This document shows positions 1 to 54,159 of a DNA stretch of 54,159 bases, piece after piece. Numbering within the stretch: position 1 is the stretch's first letter; each line of letters opens with the position of its first letter. Origin of the DNA: Candidatus Omnitrophota bacterium (lineage in GTDB: Bacteria; Omnitrophota; Gorgyraeia; Gygaellales; Profunditerraquicolaceae); NCBI GenBank assembly GCA_028716245.1, contig JAQUQW010000006.1:1-54159 (forward strand), given 5' to 3'. The position numbers and the translations under genes are program-made. Below the pieces are notes generated by a model that saw only the letters and a program-made list of their open reading frames with translations, searched no databases and was not told where the DNA came from.

Positions 1-1
1 T

Positions 2-36000: not shown

Positions 36001-39000
36001 AAATTCTATCATTAATTACTAAGTCAGGACCTTTCTGTTCTATTGCTCTACGAAGATTGGTAATGTTATTTTCATCTGCCAATAGTTCTTTTATCTTATC
36101 CTCAATCTGCTCATCTACAATTTTCTGCTGCGCCTGCTTATTTATCTGGCTCATTTTATCGAACAACAATTTCTTCACATTAGTTACATTGCCATCATTT
36201 ACTTCTAAAAGCGCATTACGTAAACCTGCTTCTATCGAATCCCAAAGAGTAATGGTTATAACCAAACCAAAATTACCGTTTTGAGCCCTTGCCTGCCGTA
36301 AATTACTAAGCGTACTGGCATCATCTAATATTTTTTTTGCTTCTCGGCTAATCTTTTCATTAATAGTACGGTTTTCATATTCATTGTTAAGCATGCCCCA
36401 GAAATTTTCTTTGGCCTTATCTATATCATTGTTATTCCAGTTTAAAAGGAATTGTTTTAATTGTCCGGGTAAATCATCCCAAATAACATTCATATTATTT
36501 AAAATTATAGAACTTCTGGCTTCTTTATAACTTAGCTCTTTAGCAAGTTTTAACATTTCTTCTCCCATAAAGAAAGATAAAGGTAGTTGTTCCCTCTTCT
36601 TGATTTCTCTCTTTACTTTTTCTAAATAATCTTGCTGATTTTTATTTTCCAAATCTTGCCAAAGAGCTTCTGCGCCTTGAGTTTCTAAAGCATCGAGCTT
36701 AAGCCTGATTTGATATATTTTATTGAAATACTGACCAGCCTTACCTTTAATTACTTCTCCAAGATAAACGTAAGTCCCCTTCTTAAAACGATTAATGAGC
36801 CAAACAATTGGCCTTAATGTAACTAAAGCTATGATAATGCCTACAACAAGAACTGTAGCTAAAATGAAGATGCCGAAGACACCCATCTCTATTTTCTGTA
36901 TTAGGTTATAATTACTTTTCTTTGACGTCACATTGAACCGCCAAATCTTACAATCTGCCTTAAAGAATCCCCACCATAGCCTGGTCCCCACACTTAAAGG
37001 TGTTGACCCGGGATTTGCCAGGAATGGAACAGCAAAAGCAGAAACTACCATTAATACATAACTCCATGACCAGATTAACGTCAGATTCCAATAAAAAGAT
37101 ATGGCAATAATTGAAATAACCGTGAGAGTTAACCCATAACGAATATGGCTTCTCCTGTAATCATTATATAATGACGCGTTTTCTTCTTGTAATCGCCCTT
37201 TCGAATCAAATGGCTTAACCGCGAAGATAGGAATATGATGCAACATAAAGCCTCTTCCTGTTCCCACATACATCGCAATTCCATCCATTGCTTTTCGCAC
37301 TCCAAAAGCATAAGTAAATACCTGGGCCATAAAATAAGGCACCATACCTTCGATAAGCATCTTTGAGAAACTGCCTGTAGCTCTCACAAACCCTTTCTTC
37401 AGCATCATTTGAAAATAGCCTCCCAATGCGATAGCTTGCATAAGGAGTATCGCCAGCAGCCCGAAGATTATTTCTGAAGGAAATGAAGCAAATCCGCTTA
37501 TACCCAATAACAATAAAAGAATAATATACGAAGTAACACCCAATCTAACTATGGGTTTTCTCAAAAAGAACCCTATGGCACCGATGAAATGCGACATTAC
37601 CTGATCAAGCGAGAAATTAGAAGAAGTATTCAGTAAATACAAGTATCGGGATCTACCCTGTTCGCCGCCGCCCATGCCTAATTTTTCAAAAAATCCCGCG
37701 GTTTTCGAGAAAGCAACTTCTCTTGCTTTGCCTGCAAGAATAAATTCAAAAAAATCCACCGTATATCCTTTTAATACCAATAAGTATCCTCCGAAGATAT
37801 CTTCATTAACATAAGAAGGCAAAGATGAACCTCGCTGGCGAACATAAGTCTCATCCCAAATATCAGGATGTCCATAATGGAACCTGACTTTTAGTAGAGT
37901 AAGAACTCTGTTCGTCAAAGAGTTAAATGTTCCATCTGCAAGAGCGTTAAATTTAGCTATTGTGTTAAATGTTTCAGTAACTATATGTTCCGGGAAACCT
38001 ATAAGCTTAACTTGATCATCATATTTGAACTTTTCCATTAAATTAGGCATAAAAAACCATTGTTCGAGGTAGAAATCCTGATTAACATCAATGCTCATCA
38101 TCTTTTCTCCCCGAACATATCTTATGCCATTAGTTTGCCCTTCGGGTTTACCTTCGGCCAATAATTCCTTACCCGGCAAAGTGATACTCTGCGAGTGAAC
38201 AATCGTTCCAGAACTACATTTCGCTAGGCCGCTAGTAGCATTAAAGAAATAAGCTATTTGTAAAATCTCAGGATATTCTTTCAACAGCCAATCCAAATCC
38301 TTAAATTTTTGTATTTCATCTGGCTTTGTTGAAACAGAGAAATTCCGGTATTGGTCAAAAGCTATTACATACTGAAATTTCTCAAGTAATTTCTTATTTA
38401 TCTGCTCCTCAGTATTGCGAACAAAGAATCCCGGGTCCTCAATCCCCAATTTCCACTTTAGGATATCCCGATAATACATCATTCCCCTAATCGTTCTTGA
38501 TAAAGGCTGGAATGAATACGATGCCCAAAGCCTTACCTCCATTATCAAATCATCATTACCTATAACAAGTGGGGTACCATAAACCAGATTCTTCATCTTG
38601 TCAATTTCCTCTGGAGGATATTTCTTAGTGCTTTCTAAATATTCAATAAGGTTTTTCCATTCATCCGGGAAAAGTTTAATTAAATACGTCAGCGCCGTTA
38701 AACCGGTATTAAGAACTTTATTCAAATCCTTAAACTCATAAATGACTTCTTCGTTACCAACCGGAGTCATGATGCTGAGTGAAAAAAGCTGTTCCCATGT
38801 TGGAGCGATATCCATATCCATATGCAGCTGATCCGCAAACCAGATGATTCTTTCTTCTGCTGATTTGTTAAGCGGTTTTTTGCCCAAATTAGGTTCTGCG
38901 TTTATTTTACCTTTAAGATAGTCAGACGAGTTCTCTTCTATTTTGAACTCATATGCTTCAAGTTCTTGTTTGGACAACCTCTTTTGTAGATACAAAGCTG

Positions 39001-42000
39001 TTACAATCAAATTCCAGGCTTTTGCCCAAGCCATTCTTTTCTGCTCATCACTAAGACTTAAACTGGAAGGAATCATTTTATCCTTAAACAGCTTCTCAAT
39101 TTGTTTTTCATTAAATTTTTTATTTACTTGTTTCCAGGACTTTATAGTGCCAATACCGATGTATTTACCTTTCACATAACCTACAATTGCTTCTGATAAA
39201 TAAAAGAAGGTAAAAGTATCCAGGAAAAAGAAAATAATAAACGGCAACCAAAGGGCAACTATTACCAATGGGATCATGTTAAACCCTAAAATCAATAGCG
39301 CCCCTCCCCATAACTCATTTGTTACTATGCCTAAATTAAAGAATACAAAATAATTCCAAAGTACTTTTGGAATAAACACGCCTAAAATCCAAAATGCCCA
39401 TCTTGATACTTTTGACCAGATAGTAACTTTGGGAGATTTATATCCTTCGTCCGGCCTCACGGATGCTGAATGATTCTTTACTTCTAGCCATCTATCCAAT
39501 AATCTTTTACAGATTTGTAAACCTACTGCCAAGAGAATCAATCCGGCTGAATAATAAACCACCAAACCCGTGATTCCTATTCCCACTGACAGAAGCGCAA
39601 ATCCTGAAGCAATATAAAGCATAGCTAAAAGAATAGATAAGGGTTTGATGAAGTTCCTAAATGTACGCAGCCATCCCCTTATGCTAGAATTGATAACTAA
39701 ATATAACTTTCTGCCAAATATCTTAGTATCGATTATTATGCCCCCGCTTTTCTCCAGATATGTTTTCCAAATTACCGCACCCTCATCACCTTTATCCCAT
39801 TCTTGACGAATAAACTTCCAATACTCTTTAAATTCCTCAGATTTTAGGGTTTCCTGTTGTATTTTCTCTTTATTCGTAACCCCGTATTTTTCAATCAATC
39901 CATCACTTCCATTGATCTTATTAAACAATTTCTCTACTAAAGGTTTTAATCCAGCGATGAATTTGTCGTAATCGCCATTTTTAACCTTACTCCGATAGCT
40001 ATTTACGAAATTCTTGTTCCTGAATAAATCATCCATATCATCGTAGGTGATAAAATACTCTGGCGGCACCGAACCCGAAACATCGCGAAATTTTCCGGGA
40101 ACAGCTCCTTTAAACTGGCCAATTTGTAATTCGAGTATTTTATGCCACCGAGTAATTTCCTCTCTTATAAATAAAGCAACGACTGCTTTGGGTATTCTTT
40201 TTGCTTCCCGGAATAAATAGCTATGGAAAGCAGGAGTATAATAAGCAAAATTAGCAGCAGATCTATTGATTAATTGCCATAAATACAGATCTTCCAAATT
40301 CAATTCTCCGACTAAACCTTCCCCTTTTACCGTCTTTAACCACACTCTATACTCTTCAAAGTGCTCATCAATAACAGTTTGCATTTTCCGCTTGTTAACT
40401 GCCAGCCGTATCTCATCATTTAAATATCCTTTAGCCTCATCGACAACCCCTTGTTCAAATCCATAGTCTAGGGGATTATTTAACAAGTCATCAATTTCTT
40501 GTATCTCACTTTGGCGGTTTGTGTTTCTCCAAAGCAGGAAATTGGGTATCTTCCTCTTTTGCCTGCCTATAAAGCTAGCGATAATCCCTGTGATATAAGT
40601 TACGATTATTACCGCTAAGGGAACAATAATCCACTGTAATAAAGACCAAGAACGTAAATCCTGTACCCATTGTTCAAGTGTGCCAATTCTGTGTTTACCG
40701 TTGTCTTCGAGATTACCGTATACATCATATTTATATTCTTGCTCGTAAATTTTACTAGGAGCTGTCCCTTCCCTCTCATAAACCATCTGAATTGTTTTAT
40801 CTGAAAAATAATTTATCTGGCTCCAATTCTTCAGCCAAATTTTCTCTGTAGGGTCGAAACTAATTACCGGCCTTTCGTCGGAAGCTGAAACATTGAAATC
40901 AACGATTTCTGTGCCTTTAGTTATGGGTTGTGGTATAAAAGTATCTGACTTGGGGCGGTCATTTAAGTCTTGAATTAATTTCCCGGTGGGAATATAAATT
41001 TTATTCTTCAAAAGAATGGTTGAATCAGTATTATGAATATCATATATAAATACATGTTCATACGTTCCGTTCGTTAAATCTTTTACATTAACTTTTTCTA
41101 CTTTGTTCGTTGTTAGATTATACCAATCAATATAAGAAATCTTTTCTTTGTATAACACGCTCTGGATATCGTATCCCCCAAAGATCCCATCTTTTTCTTT
41201 AAATTCGACGCTTCCCGGCAACACGCCAAACGGCGCGGAGGTTTTATTTTGCTCAAATAGCCACAATCTATTTACAACGGTTTTGTTAGTGCTTTTAGAG
41301 GCAGGACTTACAGCTATAAGTTCTTTTCCTAAAAAGTCATTGGTAAAAGAATAGCTCTGGCTTGTAATCTTAGGATTATCCGAATATTTTGCATCGTCTT
41401 GTTTGGCTGAAATCTCACCCTCGAGGTTTAATTCAGTGTACTGAGTTTCGATTAGAGAAGCTGACTCATTAAAATTCTTGCCGAATTGCTTTGTATATGA
41501 ATTTAAATCCGAAATGAGCCCGCTGCCTGTATAGCCTAAATATTCCTTTTCAGCACCAGAATCAACTATCGCCTTGTATTCTTTTGTAATACGGTTTCCT
41601 TTTTCATCATATGGATGCCAATAGAATCCAACTACCCCCTTACCTTGCTTATCAACTACTAATGTCTTATCAAAGAATGGCCCATAGGCATCAACTCGCC
41701 ATCCGAGATTAATATTAATCGTAGGGCTGCCTATAGTATCTACGACTGTCGCGTCTTTTAAAGGATGCCCGGGAGAAGTATAGCGGTCTTCTATAGCCCC
41801 TGAAGCATATTCTCTCTGGTTTTTTGATAATGCAATACCGTGTTTTAACAATAAATCTAATTCCTGTTGCTCCGGTTGAGTTAAATTTATATTAGAGAAA
41901 CTAAGATTATAATGCGAGAGGTTCTCTACGGAATTTTGTTCGCCTTCGTAAGAACCTTTATAATATGGTACTTGCTCTCCATCGCGGATATGGTAGGCGC

Positions 42001-45000
42001 TTACATTCTGAGGAGTATCTTTTAGATTGCTCCATTCTCCATCAGCCCAAATCCGCTGTGTAGGAATCCAGGTTTGAGTTACATTGACCGTATTACCCAA
42101 TTTATCCACATAAGAATAAGGCTTATCTAACGGTTTAAAATACCCCTGCTCCTCGTAAGCCCAGCCGCCCCAGACCTGATAAGGATAATGCCAGCGATAC
42201 CAAACAATATCCGTACCGGGAATTGAATAACGTACGCGAAAATATCTGGTCTCTTCATCGGGGCCTAAACCGTATTTGGCATCTTTGGCATCAGCATTTT
42301 CCACTTCTAAAATAATATTGCCGCTGGCTTTATCGATAAAATAGCCATACAAAGGAATCCTCTCCAACCCGATAAATTGCGGAGCCACGAATATCGCGCC
42401 GTCGCGGTCAATAATAATGGTTCGCCCGATTTCATCTCCGGGAACATTATATTCAAAGAAAATTTCATTTCCGATTTTAGAGATCGTTTGAACGAGGCGC
42501 AAATCTTCCGCGGTTAAATTCTCCGGTGTCTTTTGTTTTATTTGGGCAATTATAGTTTTAATATCATCTTTCTGAGATTCGCTAAAATTATAGATATTAT
42601 TAAGGTCGACGAGTGCTTCTTGTGAATACATCGTTTTAAGTATCTCATATCTTGCCTTCGCGTCATTCCACTTAATGAGCATTGCTTCTTCGGGTTGATA
42701 GAAATTCTTATCCTGATATTTAGCGACATAATAAATATCTTTGAGGTCTAAAGAGGCGATCATTCTTGACCTGCCAAAAGCATCCACCTGGGGTTCGCTG
42801 TAAATATAGTTTAACGGCTGGCCTGCGCTGGTGCTAGCGGCAAACTTAGTAAGCCTAAACTCGCTAAGCGGGAAAGTTTTATTTTTACCGGTTTGAGGAT
42901 CATAAACGCTTAATTCTTTAAATTCGGAGGCCTCTCCCACCATACGCGTAACCGTTCCGATTGTGGGTTGAGATTCTGATTGAGCCAGTGGATTCTTAAA
43001 ATACTTAAATACCGCGGGGAAATTCGAAGGTACAGTCTGATTCGCTTGTGGTTGCGGATGTTCTTCGGGAACAGGAGGAGCACGGGCGGTAAGAGTTTCA
43101 TTTATTGCCGAAACAGGAACTTTGGTTTCATTCTGCCAAAGCCCGCGCATCTGAGACACAACTTCTTTTTCGGTTCCATTTATCGTAACCCAGCCAAAAA
43201 ACGCTTCGTTACCGAAGAAATCATAAGGAACATCAAAAGCAGCCCCTGAAGTAGCCTGGCTAGTAGCATTTCCTGCTTTCCAATACTCATCCTGCCAGGT
43301 CATAAAGGTAACGCCAAGAATATTCTTAGCCTTTAAAGAATTCCAGATATTCACATCTGCCGCGGCTTGTTCAGTTTGATTTTCTTTACCTTCCCGCATA
43401 TTATAAGAATCCGCGCCGGTTTCAGAAATATAAATTGATTTATTACCCGCGGCTTGCTTAACTTCATCGATTGTGTTGGCAAGGCTATCCCACTGATACG
43501 CGTTTAAACCGAAAACATCCACTGAAGGAACTTGAGCAATTACACTCTTTAGCGCGTCTTTAGCAGAAGGAGTGCCGTCATAACCGTAAGCAGTAGAAAC
43601 CGGATGGTTGGGATCTATCGCCTTTGTGGCATTGGCGGCTTTTTCCAAAGCCTCATACCAAACACTAATATTACCGTTAGACCATTCCGGATGATAATTG
43701 TTTTCATTGCCAAACTCCCACATCAAAACTGCCGGATGATTTTTATAGGTCTTAATATAGTTTAGATAAGTGCCAGTCTTTATATCCGGACCTGGATTAT
43801 AGCGGTCATCAAAATAAGGGAATCCTACGATTACCCGGATATTATTTTTAGCGGCTAAATCCAACACATCCGGCATCGGCGGATAATAGGTTCTTATTGT
43901 ATTTATCCCGGTTTCATTCATCTTCTGAAAATAGGTTTCATTTACTGAATTGAGATTAAAAACAAAATCGCGCTGCCCCTTACCTTGAGGAACCGTAGAA
44001 AAGGTAACCCCGCGGATTTTATAGCTGCTATTGCCGACACTGAGCTGATTATCTTTTACAGTTACAGGCGTAATCTCCGGGTAAGTTTTTACCTCCGCGG
44101 GGAAATATGACTTATCCAGCGTAAATTCAATCGCCTTTGGCGCGGAGTAAATTCCTTTTGGATAAACCATTTCGATATTAAGGTCGGTTAAAGTTAAACG
44201 CGGCTCACTATAAACGCCATCATAAACAACATAGACCGTTTTATTTAATTCACCGAGGTAAAGAGTTCTCTTATAAACGGTAAACTGTGACTGATTCTTA
44301 AAGCTATTGATAAATTTATTAAATTCATTCTCAAAGTCATCGCTTCTATTGGTAAACCTTACTCCCTTTTGTTCTAAAAATCCGCGTGAATCTTTAACGC
44401 CAACAGTGCCTATACGAACATCCTGCTTCTTAATATCTCCTGCCAAGGAATGAGTAGTTTTAATCACTTGCCCCTTATCATTTACTTCATTAAAGAATTT
44501 ACCTGTGCTTTGCTCCAACTCAATCAAATTGCCTCTGGCATCTAATTTCTGAAACTTAGTTTTTCCTTCGGCTAAATTTATTTCCAGCATATTCACTACT
44601 ATCCCGCCTTTATTGGCTTTAAGCGGGATGAAAATGCGGGAAAGCTTTCCGGTTAAAGAATCATAAGCGCTAGCGGGAATATTATCTTTATAAACTATTT
44701 TCTCTTCGGGAGTAAGCTGATAAAGATGTTCGGCCTGACTGTAAGCGTCTATAATTATCTGGTCATTTAAAACATCTACTTTCTTAATAATATTGATGTA
44801 GTCCTGATTCTCGACCTCATAAACATAAAGGACATTATTCTTGGTCTCATATACCGGTTCGCCATGCTGATCAACACCTATCTGCACGGATATCGTTATA
44901 CCTCTCTCTTTAGAAGTATCTACGGTATAATAGGGATGCTTCAATCCATTCATCCGGTCATAATAAGTCAATTCCTCAAGTGAAACATCCCAATTCGCCA

Positions 45001-48000
45001 GAAGCGTGGCCCCTTGATAGACCTTATAGAAAACCTTATTTATATCTTCCCATGTTTCTTTAACTACCACGCCTTCATTTATGCCGGTAACTCGGCTTAC
45101 CATCCCCTGCGTATCCTCTTCTCCTGAATAGTGGCTTTGAAGTTGCTGCGCTGCAGTGGGTGCCTTCCCAACGCTGGACTTTATCAATGTATTCGGCTGC
45201 TGCTCATAACTTGTGCCATTTTTAATGATTATATCTGCCCCCGTAGAAAAGACGGGATTACCGAAAGAATTCTTTTGTGAAGGAGTAAGAGAATTATAAG
45301 TTTCGGGGGTAAAATATCTGATTTTATCCTGCTGCGTCTGGTTATTTTTCCACCATATAGCCATTCCGCTCTCGCTGCTTTCAACCAGATTTACAAACTT
45401 CCAGGTATCTGTTTCATTAAGAGTAATATTCCATTTCGAGCCCGCAGCCTTTTCTTTTGCCGCTTCAAAAGGAGTCAATTCGTTAGACGAGATGTTAGGA
45501 ACTATTTCCGTAGTATTTTCTGCTATATCTTGCTGGTGCATTTCATTAGATATTACATCATTTCCTGCGTTCGAGTTTTGATCGATAGCGTTATAAGAAT
45601 CCAGGTTAACCGCATCATCTTGATGTACATCGGCTGGATGGGCAAGAACTGGGGTGACAAACCAAGCGGCAGAGACAGATAAAATAGTAAACATGGCAAA
45701 TTTCGCATTTAGGTTATTTTGATTATTTTTTTCTTTTCTCTTTCTCTTGTACTCATCATGCTCATGTCTTATATCCCATACCTCTTCTCTATATAAAATA
45801 TTTCTTATTTCTTTTTCAGATTTAATTAAAAGGCTCACGTAGAATTTGTCTGATACAGTGATTTCGGGCGGGATCTTATATTCTTCTTCCATAAACTTGA
45901 CTTTTGAAACCATCGTTTTAGGCAAAGATTCATATATCTGCTTGCGATATGCATTGATTAATTTCCTGATGTTTTCCGGGCGTTTTAAAACAAGTATCGA
46001 TACATCAGATAAACCGGTATCTTCTAATATCTGCCGAGCGGCCTTTTCTGTCTTAATCCGCAGTAAATCTTTGGTGAATTCCATCTTCACCTGTTCCGAA
46101 TCTGCGAATAATTTCCATTCGCCATTTTGCAGCCGAATGATAATTACCATAATCATAATTACGGCTGTAATCACAAAGAAACTCCAAACATCATTCATCG
46201 CCACCCCTTCTGCCGCCAGGGCTGGGGTGGCCGTAAGCAGCAGACCGAAGATAACTATGCCCGCGGTTTTCATCATGGGATAGAAAATAACAAAAATATT
46301 GCCATTGACAAATTTAATGGTATATGCTAATTTATTTTTGATGGAAGAAGATGTGTTTTGGACAGATTCACGCAGACAGTTAATTGCAAAAGCGTTAATA
46401 AATTTATTCCAGGCATTAGTAATTGCCTTATTTATTTCAGAAGCTTTTGCTAAAGCAACCGCTCTGTGGAAATTATTTTTTCTTTCTGCAATGCTTTCTT
46501 CTTTAATAGCGGCTATTTTTGTATGTCCAACAAAAGATCCTAAGGAGGATTGAAATGACTGCTTTAATAACTTTAACCATAATCTGCCTGGTAATCTTAA
46601 TTTGGTTTGGAATTGATCAATATCGCCACAAGCACGTTCACTAGACACCGGCCCCGCCCTAAGCAACCCGCCGTCCTTAATCATAATATCTCTATATATT
46701 GATCCGCCATCGCGCTTTAAGAAAGCATCTTCTCCCGCCTTAATTTCTTTCGATTCCATCTTCCCTGAATTATTCTCTTCGGGATTGCCAAATAATGACT
46801 TATAAAGATTAATTCGAGGCCCAAATACTCCTGAAAGCTTCCAGCTAATAAATATAATTATTATTACCGATGGAATTGTAAGTAATCCCCAATAAGGATC
46901 CGAGATATCATATGGTATAACTTTTAATATCGAACTCCAGAAGATCGTTGTTCCCACAGAAAAATCAGCGACGATAGGTCTTTCAAGAAACAAAAGCCCA
47001 AGGATATCCTTTAGCATATACACAAGGGTAAATATGAAACTGCCGATTCCGATCCCCGCAAGAAACATTCTTTTCATATTAAATTTTTTAATTACTAAAC
47101 GTATTAAATAAAAACTTATTGTTAAATCTAATATATTGGGCACAAAATTACTCAATAATTCACTAATCTCCCGCGGAAGATAGACCTGGTGTCTTTGGAT
47201 ACTATAATTCGGGACAGCTAAAGGCGCTGCAAGTCCGGAAGCAAACTGTTCAGGGGCCCCGGTTTCAACAAAAGGCAAAATCTTACCTATCAATCCATAC
47301 GGATCCATAGAAGGATTCAATATTAAACCATTAAATTTATGCGCATCATATGTTAACGGTTCAAATATGGCATAATGGAGAAGTTCATGTGGCAAATGCA
47401 TTATTGCAATCACTATGGGCAGAGCTGTTAAAGCCGATCCTGACAAAAGAATAATGACGCTAATTAAATCAGATACGCCTTCCTGTCTGCTGAACTTTCT
47501 GATAGAATCTCGAATTCCAGCAAAATTGAGGACGGTTCTATTTTTTCTTGCTCCCAATCTCCAATAAGAAATAATACCAATTAAAACAATGATCCCTGTA
47601 ATTCCTGCCATGATAGGAGACATAACAACTATCCCCGCCCCCCCCGCCGCCAGGGCCGGGGCAGCTAGAGCACCTTTTACCGTAGGCGCAGTGAATAATA
47701 AAAGTGAAGCAAGCGCGAGGATCCAAAGCCAGACTTTCGCGGGAACTTTCTTTATAAAATCTACTACCCTATTGCCGCCATCATTGGACTTGGTTTCTCC
47801 TCTTTCCTGCGCTAAAGGTTCTAAACGTTCTTTGAAGAATTGTGTCAATAAAACATACTTACCTTCCTCAACGGATTTTTCATCGGCAGCCTCCAATGCT
47901 TTAAGCAACTGCACTAAATCCTTCATTTTTCTATATCGTCCCACAATGCTCAAACCGTCTAACTTATATTGATTAATTGTAGTTTTAAGATTAAGCGGAT

Positions 48001-51000
48001 AATATCCTTTAGATATAAGAATTATATCTACCAGCTTACTCGCTGTGCGGCCGTTTCCATTATTATAAGGATGTATAATAATAAACTTATAAAAAGTTTC
48101 TACCAGAAGATTTTCTAATTTAGTATTGCCTTTTATCCACATCGTATTAAGCCAATCTATATATTCTTCCATACTGCGAGGAATATCTTTTGGATCAACG
48201 AGTTTTAAATTTTCTCTGGTACCTATAACCACCTTCTCTGTTCTTAAACCTAAGTAAGAAGGAGAATTTGGATTGCCTGTTTCATCTAGCTCTCTCCCGC
48301 GAGCAACGATAACTTCTTTGTGCAATTTGTTTATAATCTCTTGGCTGATTATTCTTGGGGCATCTTTACTTAGCAGGCCGCCGTCCAAAGCGCGGTTAAT
48401 CTTTTCAGCGGATCTTTCTTCCTTTAACCTTTGAAGTTCTTTTAATATCCTGCCTCTGCCGATTTTCTTAATAATCGCGCCCCTGATATCTTCCATTGAA
48501 ATCTGAAGCGGGAGCATTCGCGCATTTATCGCTTTCAGGTTAAATTCTATATCCACCGCCGCGGAAAGCAGGTTTTCTTCCGGCCCGCAAAGCATTAAAC
48601 GCGCGTCAACAATCTCTGCTCCCGCGTTTAATGCCGCCTTTAATGCGCTAAAACCTCCTGTTTCCGTATTTGTCGATGGCACGCGAGATTCAGCAGAAAA
48701 ACTATTTTTATCTAACCGATCTAACGTAAATTGCATGGGCTTAGCTATCTTGCCTTTTACATATAGAATACCTCTCCCTTTACGGCTCTTCAGGTTGTTA
48801 ATTAAACCAATAAATAATAAATTTGATATTCTGTGCCCTTGATAATCGGGAGCAACAAATAGGAATGATACTTCAAGCGCCAAAGGATTACCCCTGTCTT
48901 CATCCACATCGACAAAACCAACGGCCTGTCCTTGTTTATTGCATACAACAACAGAATTACCGCTTAGAGATATTCCTCGCTTGCGCATAAAATCAATTAC
49001 CTGAGGGTGATAGTTTAATTTACTGCCGATATCTTTAAATGCTTTTATCTCAACCTGTCTTGCCATCACGCGCAGCAGGGCTTTCTTATGGGCTTCACGA
49101 TAAGCGGGAACATCAGGATAGATATTTGCCAAAAGCGGACCGAGATGTCTATTTAATACAATGAATTTCTCTAAAGACAGGCTTTCATTTTTACCGCAAA
49201 AGATCTCTATTAACCCGGCATAGTAATCTTCGATTACGCCTTCTGCTTTGGTCATAGCATTAAGCCCTTTTATTTTTTCATTTTCAGTTTGGGCGTCAAA
49301 CACCTTCCAATGCCCTTCTAAAATCCTGCCTATAATTTCAGCGTTATTAACCTGTTTAACTATATCGGCTATATTTTTCCCGCTTAATTGCGGCCATTCG
49401 CCGGTATTAATTATCCGGGTAACGGCGGATTTGAGTTCAGTTGAGACATCTTTGGATTCGTAAAAATATTTCTTCATCACTGCTTTATATATATCTTTAT
49501 TGCCGGCGTTAATGCTAAAACTTTCCTTTATTATCCCATACGCTTTTTCTTTAATCCCCATCGCAGTTGCTATCAATATCAATTGTAGATAGAAACCAAA
49601 ATCTATTTTCTTGGCTTCTTTTATTGATAAAGGTTTTGCGATTATGCTTTTCAGGATATAAAGGTAAGTTTCTCTGATATTGGAGGTTGGGAGAGCGTAT
49701 TCGGAAACCTTCCCCGCCGGCGTAGCTACGACAAACTTCTTGCCCTCTATTATGAGGTTATTGAAAACCTCATCCCGAAGCTTAAGCTGTTCAGAAACCT
49801 CCTGTAATAACATCGAGTTACTTTCTTTACCCACAAAATATTTAAATAACATATTCGATTCTCTCGATATCTCTGTAGTAACTTCTGGGGGATAAATCTC
49901 TTTGCGCCTATTAGCTTCCGCGATTACTTTTTCATATAAAATATATTGTTTACGGATGGCGTTCCTGAATTCCCTTACCTTTTTTGCCCTTGCGAAATCT
50001 TTTAATGAATATTTCAATGTCATTACTGTGTCTTGAAATGTCCCAACGGCGGCTGCTGCGCCCTGCACATTTTCGGATTTTTTGAGATGCCCCAACTTTT
50101 CCTCCAGCCCCCGGATCTCTTCCGCGTTAATGATTACTCTTAATGAATCTATTCCTCGTGATATTATGTTAAAAGTTTCTTGGGGATAAGCCCTCCCCTC
50201 TTCTCCGGCTTCCTCAAGCGCTTCTTTGAATAAATCATATTTTTCAGAAAATCCTTTTTCAATATTTTCATATCTTCCGTCATTGAACCAGATTGACTCC
50301 CCGGTTAATTTCTTGGATGCTTGTATAAGCCTCTTTATCGGATAAAGCCTGTTTTCTTGATTCGCTTTATTTATTTCTGTTAATGCTGCATTGAAGTCAA
50401 ATTTATCTTCTAGCACTCCGCCGTCGGCGATAATCAGCTCACCTTTTGCTTCTAAATCAAAACGTACCCTAAACCTCTCTACTCCGCCAACTAGAGCTTT
50501 ATCTGCTTCTTTTAGCATTACCCTTACTTTTAAACTATCTGCTGCCTTCTCTTCAAATTTTTTATAGAACCGAACTGCTTTTTTATTGTCTTCTCTAACC
50601 CACAACAATGCCCATTTTTTCTTCTCAACATTTTTAATATGCCTTAAACCTGCTTCTAATAATTTAGTCCCGATCCCCCCATTTTTGAGTGAAACTGCTA
50701 TGTAAGGAATAAGAGAAACATTACTCAAGGCCTCTAAATCTACATCCTCTACAATTACATACCCTACATAGGCATTGTCTTTGATGGCAAACCATACTCT
50801 ACTCTGTTGCGCAAAACCTTTATCTGGCTGGCCGGTAATTAATTTCTTAATCAGTAAGTTATGATCTACGCCGTCTTCTTCGGGTAATCCTGCCAAAGCG
50901 TTGATCTGTCTAATGATTGCGACCACTTCCGCGCTATCCAGGCCTAGCTCTTTAGTCGTCTTAATAGCAATGTTACCGCCGTCAAGAGAAACTTCTCTTG

Positions 51001-54000
51001 TTATCAGTTGTTCCGGAGACCCCTTGAGGTTCTTGCTCTGGAGGAGGGAATTTCTCAAGAGGCCTCCAGGAACAACAATAGCCGGCTCGATTAAGGAGAT
51101 ACCTGCCACGGTAAGTATCCCTAATGTAAGCAGCGGCTGGGTAACAAATAAAATAGCCCCGACCAACGCTAACACAAACCAACCTGCCACGGTAGGTTGA
51201 ATAGACCTGGTTGAGCCAGGGCTAAATCTTGCTGAATTAGTTAGTTTCGACTGTATTGACCCTATAGACTGGAACGTTCTGGCGGGCGCGGCTGATACAA
51301 TACCTGATATGGTCGGCGACCGAACCGACAAGCTCTTTCCATGCATCTGCCTGGGCATTATGGGCATAGACGGAGCCTGAATCTTTAACCAGGAAGATCC
51401 TAATCTTGTTACTGCCGTGCTCACGGGCTGCGGCAAAGGTTGAGTAGTCGCTTGTGGAATCGATGATGTGGTGAATCTTAATGGCTTCGAGCTTAATGGG
51501 AGACATAGCACACCTCCTTTTAAGGTAGTGGTTAAGGTTGAAATAATAATAGCCGCGAATGCTATTCCTGTTAAATAAAGAATAGCCTGCGGCTTAGTTA
51601 AGGTGTTATGTATGGAATTTATTAGGGTTTGAGGAGCTAAAGCGGAAAGGCCAAATAGCACTGCGGCAGCTATTAAGGCATTGATAAGCTGCGCAGGCGG
51701 GCCGCGCACAAGGCGTGCGCCAAGCTTGGCCGGATAATTAACTAATCTTGTATAAAAACGGTTTAATTTACCGGCTTCTCTGCCAACATGCTCTTTAGAT
51801 TCAACATCTCCAATTGAACTATCTGTCTCATCTCCTGCAACCGGCGAATTCTGTACTGATTGTCTAACTCTGCCATTGTTTCCCTCATTTCCTGAATTTT
51901 TATTGGACTTAACATTTTTTCCTCCCGTGGCTAATTGGTTAATTGCATTTACCACAAAACGCACAATCTTAACCAATGGAGGAGCCAATGAGAAAATCGA
52001 CTTATCAATGTTTGTCTGGGATATCGGCAGTGATTTAGCTTCTTTTACTTCGGACTTGGAAATACCGCCTAAGGCTTTTCTTACGGAAGCGATTAAACTG
52101 CGGCCTGAACCAAATAGGCACCCTGCCAATTCAGCTAAAGCATCCTTTAAGTTGGCATCTTGAACCGGCAAGAAGAAAGCGTTTTCATGGCCATTTCTAT
52201 ATGGGAACCTGCCAGAATCCGGTAAGGCGTTATTGGCCCTGCGCTGCACACCCGGTAATGACAATCCGCTAATCACCCTAAATACGCTTGCCGCCATCTC
52301 AACTATACTGCTTAGGCCCGCTCGAATTGCCCCAAGCTCAATCTTTATCGCGTTTATCGCTAACCCACCGTCTGATGCGTATCTGCCTACAGAATTATTT
52401 AAGATATCGAATACGTTATTCAATATGTCAAAGGTATTCTTGGCCTTGTCTTTATTCTCTGCTACAACCGTCTGATCGCTGATGGATTCAGCTGTTTCAA
52501 CAGCATCTGCCGCTGCTCTTGCTTCCAATTCGCCTCTTACATAGGCATATTCTCTTAACGCCTCAAATGTATTGGTTAACTGAATAAGTAATACAAACAC
52601 AGCTTCAAACTGTGACACAGAAAGCCCAAATCTATTCATAAGACGATGGGCAAAGCGAAGCTCGCTTCCGCGTAAACGTCCTAATCCGCGTAATGCGATA
52701 GCGTTCATAAGCTTTTTAACAAGAGGCGCAACGATATCATCTTCGCGGCGGACAGCTTTATCACTTGAACCAAGCTGAATAAGATAATTCAGCAAATTTA
52801 TAGCCGCTTTCTGATTTTTCGTGAGGTTCTCTAAGGCGCTGGCGGAATTATTAAGGACATCTATTGCATTACGGAGATCGGTGTCATTGCGAGCGGAGCG
52901 AAGCAATCTTAATTCTAACTGATTGGCTAAACTGCGGAAGGTATTGGCAAGTTCGGCGAATATAGCTTCCGGAGGGCTAAGGCCATTGCTTATTTTGAGA
53001 ACAGAAGAAAGACCTTCCACATCCCCTATTTTTACTGTCCCGGTTGCGTCGCAAGGAGCCGCGGACGAAGCGGCAACCCCAGCAGCTGCTCCACCATGGC
53101 CCATGTCATCACCGGCTGCCTGAATACCGGTGTTTGCCGGAGCATTTGCTCCTGTTGCATCTGCATCGCTAGCCCCTGAATTGGTACTTCCCGGATTATT
53201 TCCTGCGACTGAACCTGCGCCGCCATTGCCGCCGTTATTATTATTTGCATTGCCATTGTCACCATTGTTGTTACCATTATTTGTATTACTATTGCTATTT
53301 GTATTATCGGTATTGCTATTTGCGCTATTGCTTGCACTGCTGCTTGTGCCGCTGTTGCTATTATTGTTAGCATCTATACCAGTTCCACCAACATTCTTAA
53401 TTGCTTTCTGCTCTGTTTCACTTAATAAGTTACCTTCTAATTTTTCACTCTTAATTACCCCTTCTTCTACAATCAATATAAATCCACCATTAATTATAAA
53501 TGATTCATCAAGCTTAATCTCGCCATAACCAGCAACATGGTTATCTCCATTATCTTCTGCATATCTAATTGTTGTCCCCTTAATACCATATATTTGTAAA
53601 ATGTGATACTCATCTTTCCCAGAAGGCCGCACTATACTTACTTTATCAAGATTTCTCTTAATTATACCAATGGCCTGATCCATTTTTCCCACTTTTATCG
53701 CGCTAGGCTTTTCTTGCCTTATAGATTCTGCCTCTTTGTACTCTCCTGCATTTTCGTGTTCTGTAGCAACCTCATCATAAACCTGTCTAATAGTCTGTAA
53801 ACCAGTATACAAATCCTTAACTACATATGAGCCAAACTTAGCGGCACCTACCAATTCACGAAGAAGTTTATCCGCTCTCTCCCTAACCCTAAAATTCTTA
53901 GCTATGCCAATCAAGCAATCCACCACATCCACTACCCCTGTACGCCGACGTAGCTCATCTGTACGCGCATGTGCATCAATTGCTATTTCTTTAACCTTAG

Positions 54001-54157: not shown

Positions 54158-54159
54158 TT
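54023..54159. repeat. Perfect 21-bp tandem repeat encoding (KQEAGAA)n, truncated by the window edge
   Basis: Unit tgcttcttgttttgctgctcc; 6 full copies plus 11 nt. Confidence 0.98.

What the first reader, a model, noticed from the sequence alone, without database searches (positions are those of the whole stretch)
46341..46644. Two-gene antisense operon completely nested in the giant ORF
Seen: a promoter, a 70-aa two-TM ORF and a coupled 29-aa one-TM ORF with a strong internal SD, all on +, while the giant frame stays open through them and a DGG sits immediately beside the second stop (46667). I saw no terminator, so the transcript may run on as antisense RNA. Inference: a captured mobile micro-operon has been domesticated without breaking the host frame, which is direct evidence that the giant gene grows by engulfing foreign DNA in either orientation. 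A toxin/antitoxin- or holin-like role is speculative.
Basis: partly seen in the sequence, partly recalled or inferred. Interest (0 to 1): 0.8.

Follow-up and report, generated by a model that had tools for sequence, protein, structure and literature searches.

The report
Antisense small-protein operon inside giant gene
A real, conserved two-gene operon for two tiny membrane proteins lies backwards and entirely inside a giant (>54 kb) bacterial reading frame, and the DNA there appears to be selected on both strands at once: for the small proteins on one strand and merely for "no stop codons" on the other.

Summary
The whole window is one stop-free minus-strand frame of 18,052 codons. On the plus strand there is a TTGACA-N17-(TGc)TAATTT promoter (46305-46333). 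ORF1 (46341-46553, 70 aa, 2 TM) starts 7 nt after the -10, so it is probably leaderless. AAGGAGG lies inside ORF1's last codons. ORF2 (46555-46644, 29 aa, 1 TM, His-rich tail) follows ORF1's stop by 1 nt.

It is not a chance antisense ORF. The same promoter, ORF1, SD and ORF2 unit recurs in at least 15 loci. Homology starts at the -35 hexamer and ends at ORF2's stop. Nine copies sit inside long opposite-strand ORFs: seven in ORFs of at least 0.97 kb up to at least 54 kb (Omnitrophota, one Elusimicrobia), two in shorter ones. Six are free-standing, often near toxin-antitoxin genes.

pN/pS is 0.30 (ORF1) and 0.24 (ORF2) in the plus frames. In the giant frame it is 0.49 and 1.70. Yet the giant frame has no stops in all nine nested copies, where 1.7-3.5 are expected.

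The "capture and domestication" reading is only partly supported: direction is unresolved and the giant frame shows no use of the sequence. Function is unknown. No family, fold or RNA match was found.

The parts
1..54159 (-). Giant open reading frame. It runs off both ends of the window (18,052 codons, no stop) and is a chain of enzyme and TM modules separated by DGG motifs.
   Evidence: 0 stops in this frame; translation. Pfam hits to GNAT x2, Fic, GH2_C, Glucan_synthase (1.7e-80), HEAT, Radical_SAM+SPASM, methyltransferase, fucose pyrophosphorylase, HUMPS, PGM, guanylate kinase and SIS; 27 DGG against 4.3 expected.
46305..46310 (+). -35 hexamer TTGACA of the cassette promoter.
   Evidence: Read. 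Invariant in 11 of 11 aligned loci, and homology between loci begins here.
46325..46333 (+). Extended -10 (TGc TAATTT), 17 nt after the -35 and 7 nt before the ATG. This spacing implies a leaderless mRNA.
   Evidence: TGn-TAnnnT followed by 7 nt and then ATG is seen in the window, L004-L007 and L009-L012 (9 loci). The transcription start site itself is inferred, not measured.
46341..46553 (+). ORF1, 70 aa, a two-TM helical hairpin with no SD. Conserved motifs: FWTxxRRxLIAKAxINLFQALVIALFISEAFxKA ... CPxK(D/E).
   Evidence: homologues found; pN/pS 0.30. AF2 hairpin.
46407..46412 (+). Phe-Gln codon pair TTC-CAG. The synonymous TTT-CAR would create TGA in the giant frame.
   Evidence: TTC in all 8 close nested copies and TTT in free-standing L001 and L003. 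Giant-gene Phe usage is TTT:TTC = 559:248.
46542..46548 (+). Shine-Dalgarno AAGGAGG for ORF2. It lies inside the last codons of ORF1, 6 nt before the ORF2 ATG.
   Evidence: A GGAGG-like core (GGAG/GGA) and the stop+1 nt+ATG junction recur in the 11 aligned close loci.
46555..46644 (+). ORF2, 29 aa, one TM plus a basic His-rich tail (YRHKHVH). Translationally coupled to ORF1 (TGA-a-ATG).
   Evidence: pN/pS 0.24 in this frame against 1.70 in the giant frame.
46292..46675 (-). Giant-frame 'linker' read through the cassette (aa 2495-2622). Its amino-acid sequence is unconstrained but it is stop-free. It is the only part of the giant protein shared with L007, L009, L012, L004 and L010.
46667..46675 (-). 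DGG motif (GAC GGC GGG) 23 nt beyond the ORF2 stop. It begins the module that contains the cassette ('DGG|LLRAGPV', shared with L005).
46703..46711 (-). Second DGG motif, 12 codons upstream in the giant frame.
46205..46276 (-). Signal-peptide-like or TM segment of the giant frame (MMKTAGIVIFGLLLTATPALAAEG), just downstream of the cassette in the minus sense.
   Evidence: Judged by eye only. Similar Sec- or Tat-like segments follow the cassette in L006, L007, L009 and L010.

Best explanation
Shown. The region is an autonomous bicistronic operon for two small membrane proteins, embedded head-on (antisense) and entirely inside a giant Omnitrophota-type ORF. The unit runs from the -35 hexamer to the ORF2 stop, about 340 nt, and is conserved as a block. 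Purifying selection acts on both plus-strand peptides. The giant frame across the block is free to change its amino acids but is kept free of stop codons through synonymous codon choice in ORF1 and ORF2. The DNA is therefore constrained on both strands, and the giant frame uses it as an inter-module linker next to a DGG boundary.

Inferred mechanism:
- A sigma-70-type extended -10 promoter fires inside the giant gene.
- The mRNA starts at or 1 nt before the ORF1 AUG, so it is leaderless.
- Ribosomes finishing ORF1 reinitiate on ORF2 through the AAGGAGG and the UGA-A-AUG junction.
- ORF1 inserts as an N-in 2-TM hairpin and ORF2 as an N-out 1-TM peptide. This places ORF1's CP...acidic tail and ORF2's basic His-rich tail together on the cytoplasmic face, probably as a small hetero-oligomer.
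- With no terminator, transcription continues antisense into the giant gene. The giant mRNA is perfectly complementary to the cassette mRNA, so mutual interference is likely.

Functional class (my best guess, about 35%). A self-contained membrane-active peptide with a protective partner, resembling a toxin/immunity or TA pair, that habitually sits facing an oncoming host gene. It is probably not a factor dedicated to the giant protein.
For: 1. Homologues and block conservation.
- ORF1 has protein homologues at E 1e-19 to 1e-37.
- The whole arrangement (TTGACA, TGn-TAnnnT, 7 nt, ATG, ORF1, GGAGG, stop+1 nt+ATG, ORF2 with a basic, usually His-rich tail) recurs in the window and in L001, L003-L007 and L009-L015; in L019 the tail is basic but His-poor.
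- DNA homology begins at the -35 and ends at the ORF2 stop.

2. Selection.
- Pooled pN/pS for ORF1 is 0.30 in the plus frame against 0.49 in the giant frame, and lower in all 28 pairs.
- For ORF2 it is 0.24 against 1.70.

3. Nesting.
- A minus-strand frame is open through the cassette for at least 54 kb (window), at least 20.2 kb (L005, L007), at least 11.6 kb (L009), at least 7.6 kb (L012), at least 4.0 kb (L006) and at least 0.97 kb (L004).

4. Stop avoidance.
- Resampling synonymous codons with the giant gene's usage predicts 2.4-4.1 stops. P(stop-free) is 0.003-0.04 per nested locus.
- A within-cassette codon shuffle predicts 1.7-3.5 stops. The observed number is 0 in 9 of 9 nested copies.
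- The Phe-Gln pair is TTC-CAR in the 8 close nested copies and TTT-CAA (which gives antisense TGA) in free L001 and L003.

5. Island of conservation.
- The cassette is the only segment shared between the window's giant frame and those of L007, L009, L012, L004 and L010.

6. Context of free copies.
- They lie next to AbiEii/AbiEi, HicAB, PemK, PIN and a nucleotidyltransferase (NTP_transf_2).
- The downstream neighbour is on the opposite strand in all 7 distinct contexts.

7. Diversified tandem arrays.
- Further copies occur in L007, L009 and L011, and there is an array of 2TM + 1TM His-tail pairs in L005 at 14165-14936.
Against: - There are no expression data of any kind. The promoter and the leaderless start are inferred from consensus, spacing and conservation, and Omnitrophota promoters are not characterised.
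- Translation of the giant frame through this block is inferred only from stop avoidance.
- The loci are phylogenetically related, so the per-locus P values are not independent. Free-standing copies are also somewhat stop-depleted (1.0 observed against about 3 expected), so part of the effect may be inherited or compositional.
- ORF1 shares wobble positions with the giant frame, so its dN/dS contrast is modest.
- Nothing supports the functional class directly. No Pfam, NCBIfam, PHROG or PADLOC hit was found. Foldseek gave no match with E below 1. The mRNA has no conserved structure.
- A strong promoter plus a strong SD is unusual for an unregulated toxin.
Confidence: 0.8

Rival explanations
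1. Chance 'shadow' ORFs. The antisense strand of a purine-rich gene is T-rich, so it throws up hydrophobic ORFs, promoter-like and SD-like strings without function.
For:: 35 plus-strand ORFs of at least 60 aa, 16 of them with TM-like segments; plus frame 2 has only 584 stops; promoter-like hits are no more frequent than in shuffles (7 against 8.0).
Against: The whole unit is conserved in at least 15 loci with different flanks, including free-standing copies. pN/pS is 0.24-0.30 in the plus frames. ORF1's codon score is the top outlier among the antisense ORFs.
Confidence: 0.02
2. A free-living, mobile micro-operon was captured by the growing giant gene. One or two synonymous changes opened the antisense frame. 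The event shows that giant genes grow by swallowing neighbouring or foreign DNA in either orientation.
For: Free-standing copies need only 1 (L003) or 2 (L001) changes to open the giant-equivalent frame. The deepest branches of the family (L013, L014, L019) are free-standing. The flanks of nested copies are unrelated. The cassette position differs between the roughly collinear window and L005. L005 carries a further array of opposite-strand small genes inside its giant ORF.
Against: The tree rests on about 100 aa and has no support values. Free copies L001, L003 and L015 fall inside the nested clade and are themselves stop-depleted, as expected if they left an ORF. No mobility hallmarks were found. 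No cassette-free orthologue was available to show an empty site.
Confidence: 0.3
3. The reverse direction. The family is an ORF-dwelling module whose normal home is inside long opposite-strand ORFs, and the free-standing copies are escapes or remnants of decayed host ORFs.
For: There are 9 nested against 6 free distinct contexts. Antisense stop depletion is seen in free copies as well. A distant Elusimicrobia member is also nested. L011 and L010 look like intermediates, with host ORFs of 0.6-1.1 kb.
Against: Gene callers hide nested copies and short contigs dominate, so the counts are biased in unknown ways. Free copies occur in ordinary contexts (CobU/Fpg in L014) and in a 63% GC organism (L019) with no sign of a giant gene.
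Confidence: 0.25
4. The cassette serves the giant protein. Either its products are small accessory subunits for membrane insertion or processing of the adjoining modules, or its main role is antisense transcription that regulates or partitions the giant transcript.
For: In the window, L006, L007, L009 and L010 a Sec- or Tat-like signal or TM segment follows within about 30-130 codons in the minus sense (judged by eye). There is no terminator, so antisense RNA into the giant gene is expected. A DGG boundary is adjacent in the window and L005.
Against: Free-standing copies exist with no giant gene in view. Purifying selection on the peptides argues against a purely RNA-level role. There is only one copy in 54 kb of the window, against dozens of TM and signal-like segments.
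Confidence: 0.15
5. The giant frame is not translated here. The locus is really two minus-strand genes with an opposite-strand operon between them, and the lack of stops is incidental or serves something other than translation.
For: A good gene-start-like sequence (MMKTAG... signal peptide) lies just after the cassette. The giant-frame amino acids are unconstrained. The 531-aa segment around the cassette has no protein homologue and a 706-aa stretch spanning it has no Pfam domain.
Against: Zero stops in 18,052 codons, and the same in L005 and L007 over 20 kb each. Stop avoidance holds specifically in this frame across 9 diverged cassettes. No SD precedes the MMKTAG ATG.
Confidence: 0.1

Closest known systems
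Embedded antisense overlapping genes (OLGs) of bacteria: laoB, asa, pop and ano in E. coli O157:H7 (PMC5810103, PMC6294744, PMC7103648, PMC5960689), and olg1/olg2 in Pseudomonas aeruginosa (PMC8850804). Reviewed in PMC7457138.
   Same: A protein-coding ORF lies completely inside another ORF on the opposite strand. It has its own promoter-like and ribosome-binding signals and shows purifying selection.
   Different: Those genes are described as young and taxonomically restricted, arising by overprinting on an older, constrained 'mother' gene. Here the polarity is reversed. The embedded unit is the conserved partner and is also found free-standing. It is a whole two-gene operon with its promoter. 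The 'mother' frame is constrained only to stay open. The host is a giant ORF of more than 54 kb. Expression is shown for the EHEC and Pseudomonas cases and is not shown here.
Giant genes of Omnitrophota ('Archaeovorin' and related types; West-Roberts et al. 2023, bioRxiv 10.1101/2023.11.21.568195; 2026 preprint 10.64898/2026.06.07.730766).
   Same: An ORF of tens of kb with many TM segments and sugar-metabolism, glycosyl and acetyltransferase-type domains, for which proteolytic processing is suspected. L005 is from a Ca. Omnitrophota MAG.
   Different: Neither paper's main text contains the words 'antisense', 'opposite strand' or 'DGG'. 'Nested' was searched only in the 2026 preprint. [quoted passage not shown]
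Type I toxin-antitoxin loci with coupled reading frames (hok/mok/sok type). This comparison rests on my own knowledge, not on a tool result.
   Same: A hydrophobic peptide of about 30 aa is translated by coupling to an upstream overlapping or adjacent ORF of about 70 aa. An RNA fully complementary to the mRNA is made from the opposite strand (here the host gene's mRNA). The family is patchy and multi-copy, and often sits in TA-rich islands.
   Different: ORF1 is itself a conserved 2-TM protein. There is no dedicated antisense sRNA gene. No conserved mRNA fold sequesters the SD. No sequence match to any known family was found. Toxicity is untested.
Leaderless polycistronic small-ORF transcripts (for example in mycobacteria, bioRxiv 10.1101/834739).
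   Same: The first cistron starts at the 5' end of the mRNA without an SD, and a small ORF leads a polycistronic transcript.
   Different: There the small ORF acts as an attenuator for downstream genes. Here both products are conserved membrane proteins and nothing recognisable lies downstream.

Membership tests
Embedded antisense overlapping gene (OLG) | ORF lies wholly within another ORF on the opposite strand. | tested here: met
   ORF1 and ORF2 (46341-46644, plus strand) lie inside a stop-free minus frame of 54,159 nt.
Embedded antisense overlapping gene (OLG) | Embedded ORF is under purifying selection or conserved. | tested here: met
   pN/pS is 0.30 (ORF1) and 0.24 (ORF2). At least 15 loci carry the unit.
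Embedded antisense overlapping gene (OLG) | The enclosing frame is itself protein-coding across the overlap. | tested here: inconclusive
   Stop avoidance is beyond expectation in 9 of 9 nested copies. The amino-acid sequence is unconstrained, with pN/pS 1.70 over ORF2.
Embedded antisense overlapping gene (OLG) | Transcription and translation of the embedded ORF are demonstrated. | not testable with these tools
   No RNA-seq, Ribo-seq or proteomics is available.
Type I toxin-antitoxin (hok/mok-like) | Small hydrophobic toxin peptide of under 60 aa. | tested here: met
   ORF2 is 29 aa with one TM segment, maximum hydropathy 2.64.
Type I toxin-antitoxin (hok/mok-like) | Structured toxin mRNA that sequesters the ribosome-binding site, or a dedicated antisense sRNA. 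| tested here: not met
   MFE z-score is -0.16. The consensus fold is -1.75 kcal/mol with no covarying pair. Rfam gives nothing.
Type I toxin-antitoxin (hok/mok-like) | Sequence membership in a described toxin family. | tested here: not met
   No significant Pfam, NCBIfam or PADLOC hit.
Type I toxin-antitoxin (hok/mok-like) | Toxicity on expression, neutralised by the partner. | not testable with these tools
   Requires an experiment.
Phage holin / lysis cassette | Phage or prophage context with an endolysin, or a match to holin families. | tested here: not met
   There is no relative in 2.9 million viral contigs. Neighbours are TA or housekeeping genes. The only PHROG holin hit is one distant member at E 0.008.
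Leaderless mRNA | Transcription start at or within a few nt of the start codon, with no SD. | tested here: inconclusive
   The spacing from -10 to ATG is 7 nt in 9 loci and 8 nt in L015, and there is no SD before ORF1. The transcription start site was not measured.
Insertion sequence / MITE-type mobile element | Terminal inverted repeats, target-site duplication or a transposase. | tested here: not met
   Homology ends at the -35 and at the ORF2 stop with no shared terminal repeats. The only flanking repeat is a chance-level 10-mer (my estimate).
Omnitrophota giant gene (Archaeovorin-like) | ORF of tens of kb with many TM segments and carbohydrate-active or sugar-metabolism domains. | tested here: met
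   At least 18,052 codons. Glucan_synthase, GH2_C, PGM, fucose pyrophosphorylase and GNAT domains are present. The nearest related locus is a Ca. Omnitrophota MAG.
Omnitrophota giant gene (Archaeovorin-like) | C39 or S8 peptidase and SecA-like domains near the protein ends. | not testable with these tools
   Both ends of the ORF lie outside the window. None of these domains is in the window.

The most novel reading that the evidence does not exclude
The cassette belongs to a family of small 'ORF-dwelling' operons adapted to live head-on inside other genes.

- Their synonymous codons are tuned so that one antisense frame stays open. They can therefore sit in, and move between, the DGG-delimited module junctions of giant genes without breaking them.
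- The host's own mRNA serves as their antisense regulator.
- The giant 'genes' of Omnitrophota would then be mosaics in which stretches of the frame are mere read-through over opposite-strand genes. Examples are this cassette and the multi-gene array in L005 at 14.1-15.3 kb.
- Part of what is counted as a protein of more than 50,000 aa would be non-functional linker, removed at DGG sites.
Probability: 0.25. Interest if true: 0.9.

Novelty: new variant of a known kind. Interest (0 to 1): 0.72.

Why it matters
Well-supported antisense genes embedded in bacterial ORFs are few and contested, and the known ones are young ORFs overprinted on old genes. This locus shows the opposite arrangement. A complete, conserved promoter-plus-two-gene unit is enclosed by a frame that is selected only to remain open.

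The case is testable with existing metatranscriptomes and proteomes. It has natural controls, because the same cassette occurs both free-standing and nested. It gives a simple read-out: TTC against TTT at Phe-Gln, and antisense stop counts.

It also bears on an open question about the giant Omnitrophota genes, namely whether they are one functional protein or a processed chain. At least some of the 'protein' is sequence-unconstrained read-through next to DGG motifs.

It also adds a new family of paired small membrane proteins whose function is unknown.

Tried and rejected
- Protein search with the giant-frame segment around the cassette (531 aa). No homologue at E <= 1e-3, not even itself, so orthologous giant proteins could not be collected that way.
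- Pfam, NCBIfam, PHROGs and PADLOC on ORF1, ORF2 and distant members. Nothing significant.
- Foldseek of the ORF1 model against the PDB. Only generic helical hairpins, E > 1.
- Rfam on 45-48 kb at E <= 1 and on the whole window at gathering score, plus tRNA/tmRNA search. Nothing.
- Viral contigs. No relative, so a phage lysis cassette is rejected.
- Conserved RNA structure in the plus transcript. None, so hok-like mRNA control is rejected.
- DGG as an in-frame Shine-Dalgarno (GGAGG). Rejected, because the codons are GAY-GGY-GGN and only 1 of 27 contains GGAGG.
- Terminal repeats or target duplication. Only a 10-nt AT-rich direct repeat (46150 and 46678). I estimate about 0.6 such repeats are expected by chance in this stretch, so it is not used.
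- The consensus promoter scanner picked TTGCCA-18-TATGCT. The comparative alignment shows the conserved hexamers are TTGACA (46305) and TAATTT (46328).
- Codon-position periodicity cannot separate the frames in ORF1, because ORF1 and the giant frame share third positions. ORF2, where they do not, was used as the discriminating segment.
Full report
**What is in the window**

The entire 54,159-nt window lies inside one minus-strand reading frame with no stop codon, 18,052 codons long. The other five frames carry 584-1,929 stops each.

The translation reads as a chain of ordinary enzyme and membrane modules. Pfam finds GNAT x2, Fic, GH2 TIM barrel, 1,3-beta-glucan synthase (E 1.7e-80), HEAT repeats, radical SAM+SPASM, a methyltransferase, fucose pyrophosphorylase, HUMPS, phosphoglucomutase, guanylate kinase and SIS. 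The modules are punctuated by 27 DGG motifs against 4.3 expected.

The nearest related locus is a Ca. Omnitrophota MAG. The architecture resembles the giant Omnitrophota genes described by West-Roberts et al. (bioRxiv 10.1101/2023.11.21.568195).

**The observation**

The following elements are on the plus strand:

| Element | Coordinates | Note |
|---|---|---|
| -35 TTGACA | 46305-46310 | |
| Spacer | 46311-46327 | 17 nt |
| TGc + -10 TAATTT | 46325-46333 | extended -10 |
| Gap to ATG | 46334-46340 | 7 nt |
| ORF1 | 46341-46553 | 70 aa |
| AAGGAGG | 46542-46548 | inside ORF1's last codons |
| ORF1 stop TGA | 46551-46553 | followed by one base, then ATG |
| ORF2 | 46555-46644 | 29 aa |

- ORF1 has two TM-like segments and ORF2 has one. 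AlphaFold2 gives a helical hairpin for ORF1, pLDDT 75.
- A DGG lies at 46667-46675 on the minus strand.
- No terminator follows ORF2.

Length and hydrophobicity alone mean little. The antisense strand is T-rich and yields 35 ATG-started plus-strand ORFs of at least 60 aa, 16 of them with a TM-like stretch. Two features already stand out within the window. ORF1's codon-usage score (+0.31 per codon) is the top outlier of those 35 and equals the giant-frame mean of 0.30 +/- 0.10. An SD as strong as ORF2's precedes only 3 of 118 plus-strand ORFs.

**It is a conserved unit**

- ORF1 found three called proteins of 71-94 aa (59-68% identity, E 1e-19 to 1e-21).
- A profile search of 1.84 billion representatives found only 18 hits, so the family is rare. 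A wider word-indexed search found 27.
- Fetching contigs and scanning genome and metagenome collections gave about 15 distinct loci.
- In the 11 close loci the same arrangement recurs. It consists of TTGACA, about 17 nt, TGn-TAnnnT, 7 nt in nine loci, ATG, an ORF1 of 65-71 aa, a GGAGG-like core inside ORF1's end, a stop followed by 1 nt and ATG, and an ORF2 of 29-33 aa. ORF2 has one TM segment and a basic, mostly His-rich tail such as YRxKHxH. The more distant free-standing loci keep the two coupled ORFs but vary in promoter and spacing.
- In an 11-sequence DNA alignment, similarity begins at the -35 hexamer, which is invariant, and stops at the ORF2 stop codon.
- The 7-nt gap between the -10 and the ATG, with no SD, is the spacing expected for a leaderless mRNA. 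That is an inference.

**Which strand is selected**

In ORF1 the giant frame shares third codon positions with the plus frame, so periodicity cannot discriminate the two. In ORF2 the giant frame's second position is ORF2's third position, so ORF2 is the discriminating segment. Nei-Gojobori pooled estimates over 8 sequences (ORF1) and 7 sequences (ORF2) are below.

| Segment | pN/pS, plus frame | pN/pS, giant frame | Note |
|---|---|---|---|
| ORF1 | 0.30 | 0.49 | plus frame lower in all 28 pairs |
| ORF2 | 0.24 | 1.70 | |

This also holds for pairs in which both copies are nested. For L005-L009 over ORF2 the values are 0.18 against 6.2. The peptides are therefore under purifying selection and the giant-frame amino-acid sequence is not. 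Accordingly, the giant-frame translation across ORF2 is unrecognisable between loci while ORF2 itself is well conserved.

**The giant frame is nevertheless kept open**

Nine copies lie inside long opposite-strand ORFs.

| Locus | Open minus-strand frame through the cassette |
|---|---|
| window | at least 54 kb |
| L005 | at least 20.2 kb |
| L007 | at least 20.2 kb |
| L009 | at least 11.6 kb |
| L012 | at least 7.6 kb |
| L006 (Elusimicrobia MAG, distant member) | at least 4.0 kb |
| L004 (whole contig) | at least 0.97 kb |
| L010 | 1.1 kb |
| L011 | 0.63 kb |

- Holding the peptide sequences fixed and redrawing synonymous codons from the giant gene's usage predicts 2.4-4.1 stops in that antisense frame. 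P(stop-free) is 0.003-0.04 per nested locus.
- The stricter shuffle of each cassette's own codons predicts 1.7-3.5 stops. The observed number is 0 in all nine (P 0.003-0.10 each).
- A concrete example is the Phe-Gln pair. All eight close nested copies use TTC-CAR, which is antisense TGG. The free-standing L001 and L003 use TTT-CAA, which is antisense TGA. The giant gene itself prefers TTT by 559:248.
- The loci are related, so these tests are not independent. However, synonymous divergence between them is high (pS 0.36-1.0), so openness has been maintained through much change.
- Free-standing copies have 2, 1, 0, 1, 2 and 0 stops against 4.6, 3.7, 1.9, 3.2, 4.1 and 0.6 expected. The whole family is therefore somewhat pre-adapted, or has spent time inside ORFs.

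**Context and movement**

BLASTP of the long minus frames against the window's giant protein shows that for L007, L009, L012, L004 and L010 the cassette region is the only shared segment.

L005 shares several modules in roughly the same order. The cassette, together with the 'DGG|LLRAGPV' junction, lies before the 'VDFIKKVP...' TM module in L005 and after it in the window. This fits relocation or module shuffling at DGG junctions. Some of these matches are weak (25-35% identity).

Further copies occur in other loci:
- L007 has a second intact copy in tandem.
- L009 has a second copy with a stop at ORF1 codon 2.
- L011 has a second ORF2-like peptide.
- L005 has a further array of 2TM + 1TM-His-tail pairs and a 109-aa ORF at 14.1-15.3 kb. 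All of these are antisense inside its giant ORF.

The window has just one copy. No transposase, terminal inverted repeats or credible target duplication accompany the unit.

Free-standing copies lie beside AbiEii/AbiEi, HicAB, PemK, PIN, a nucleotidyltransferase (NTP_transf_2), or housekeeping genes (CobU/Fpg). In all seven distinct contexts the downstream neighbour is on the opposite strand. Facing an oncoming gene therefore seems to be a family habit, of which nesting is the extreme form.

**Capture or escape?**

A neighbour-joining tree of about 100 concatenated residues, with no support values, puts free L001, L003 and L015 among the nested copies. It puts free L013, L014 and L019 plus nested L006 on the deep branches.

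This implies several switches of state but does not give the direction. The unit is real, independent of the giant protein and found elsewhere on its own. 'Direct evidence of engulfing' and 'domestication' go beyond the data.

**Function**

- No library recognises either protein (Pfam, NCBIfam, PHROGs, PADLOC).
- Foldseek finds only generic hairpins.
- No relative is in viral contigs.
- Rfam finds nothing.
- The plus transcript has no conserved structure: z -0.16, no covariation.

This argues against a holin and against a hok-type, structure-controlled type I toxin.

The remaining indications are these:
- small size;
- a 1-TM cationic His-rich peptide coupled to a 2-TM partner;
- a patchy, multi-copy and diversified distribution;
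- frequent TA-island neighbours;
- a constant head-on orientation.

My best guess, at about 35%, is a self-contained membrane-active peptide with a protective partner. The complementary host transcript could modulate it. Alternatives are a role in biogenesis of the neighbouring signal-peptide-bearing modules, or regulation of the giant transcript. Both are weakened by free-standing copies with no giant gene in view, and the RNA-only version also by the selection on the peptides.

**Comparison with what is known**

The closest kind is the embedded antisense overlapping gene of bacteria. Examples are laoB, asa, pop and ano in EHEC and olg1/olg2 in P. aeruginosa (PMC5810103, PMC6294744, PMC7103648, PMC5960689, PMC8850804).

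Those are young ORFs overprinted on an older constrained gene. Here a whole promoter-plus-two-gene unit is the conserved partner, and the enclosing giant frame is only kept open.

Term searches of the main text of two giant-gene papers found no occurrence of 'antisense', 'opposite strand' or 'DGG'. 'Nested' was searched only in the 2026 preprint. I class the finding as a new variant of a known kind.

**Limits**

- There are no expression data.
- The promoter and leaderless start are inferred.
- Translation of the giant frame across the block is inferred from stop avoidance.
- The sample is small and the loci are related.
- Most contigs are short.
- Signal-peptide calls were made by eye.

Noticed in passing
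window, whole giant frame (for example minus-strand codons at 46667-46675, 47774-47782, 3707-3715): DGG occurs 27 times in 18,052 aa against 4.3 expected. By eye it tends to fall between recognisable modules. The codons are biased: GAY-GGY-GGN, with the first Gly GGC or GGT in 25 of 27 (counted from the listing) although Gly codons are used evenly overall, and Asp GAC in 13 of 27 against 23% overall. It is not an in-frame GGAGG. It could be a double-glycine cleavage site for the C39-type peptidases reported in Omnitrophota giant proteins. That last point is my inference.
   Followed up: partly
L005:14165-15301 (+): A further array of small membrane-protein pairs lies antisense inside the L005 giant ORF: 80 aa + 31 aa, then 54 aa + 33 aa + 31 aa, all with His-rich tails. 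A 109-aa soluble ORF follows. The giant-frame translation there looks non-protein-like.
   Followed up: partly
L007:10580-10883 and L009:6671-6968 (+): Second, diverged cassette copies lie in tandem with the first, both nested. The L007 copy is intact with its own TTGACA promoter. The L009 copy has TAA as ORF1 codon 2 and is probably a pseudogene. In L007 an 85-nt stretch spanning the last codons of ORF2, its stop and the 3' flank is 96% identical between copies, although the rest of the coding parts are only 60-80% identical.
   Followed up: partly
window:51059-51253 and 51457-51700 (-): Giant-frame aa 969-1033 are 83% identical to L005 aa 2093-2154, far above the rest of the two ORFs. The adjoining stretch has the lowest giant-frame codon-usage score in the window. 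This may be another embedded element. No tRNA or Rfam match was found.
   Followed up: no
window:54030-54157 (-) and about 35150-35350 (-): A tandem heptad QEAGAAK x6 lies at the window's minus-sense start. A near-exact 27-aa duplication (LLLEEKVELEKQALLDANKRNQDQVQI) lies inside a coiled-coil-like repeat region.
   Followed up: no
L001:4560-4680 and L003:1150-1200 (+): Both free-standing cassettes are followed by repeated TGACCCCTTTATTTA-like motifs, which are tandem in L001. Their meaning is unknown.
   Followed up: no
window:12753-13214 and 31281-31742 (+): These are the two longest antisense ORFs (153 aa each). Their codon-usage scores are -0.09 and +0.02, like the bulk of chance antisense ORFs.
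   Followed up: partly
window:45665-47782 (-): The giant-frame segments around the cassette, including a TM-rich module, have no detectable relatives. The 531-aa segment 45665-47257 has no protein homologue at E <= 1e-3 in 5.8 billion sequences, and the 706-aa segment 45665-47782 has no Pfam domain. The window's own giant protein is not in that database.
   Followed up: no
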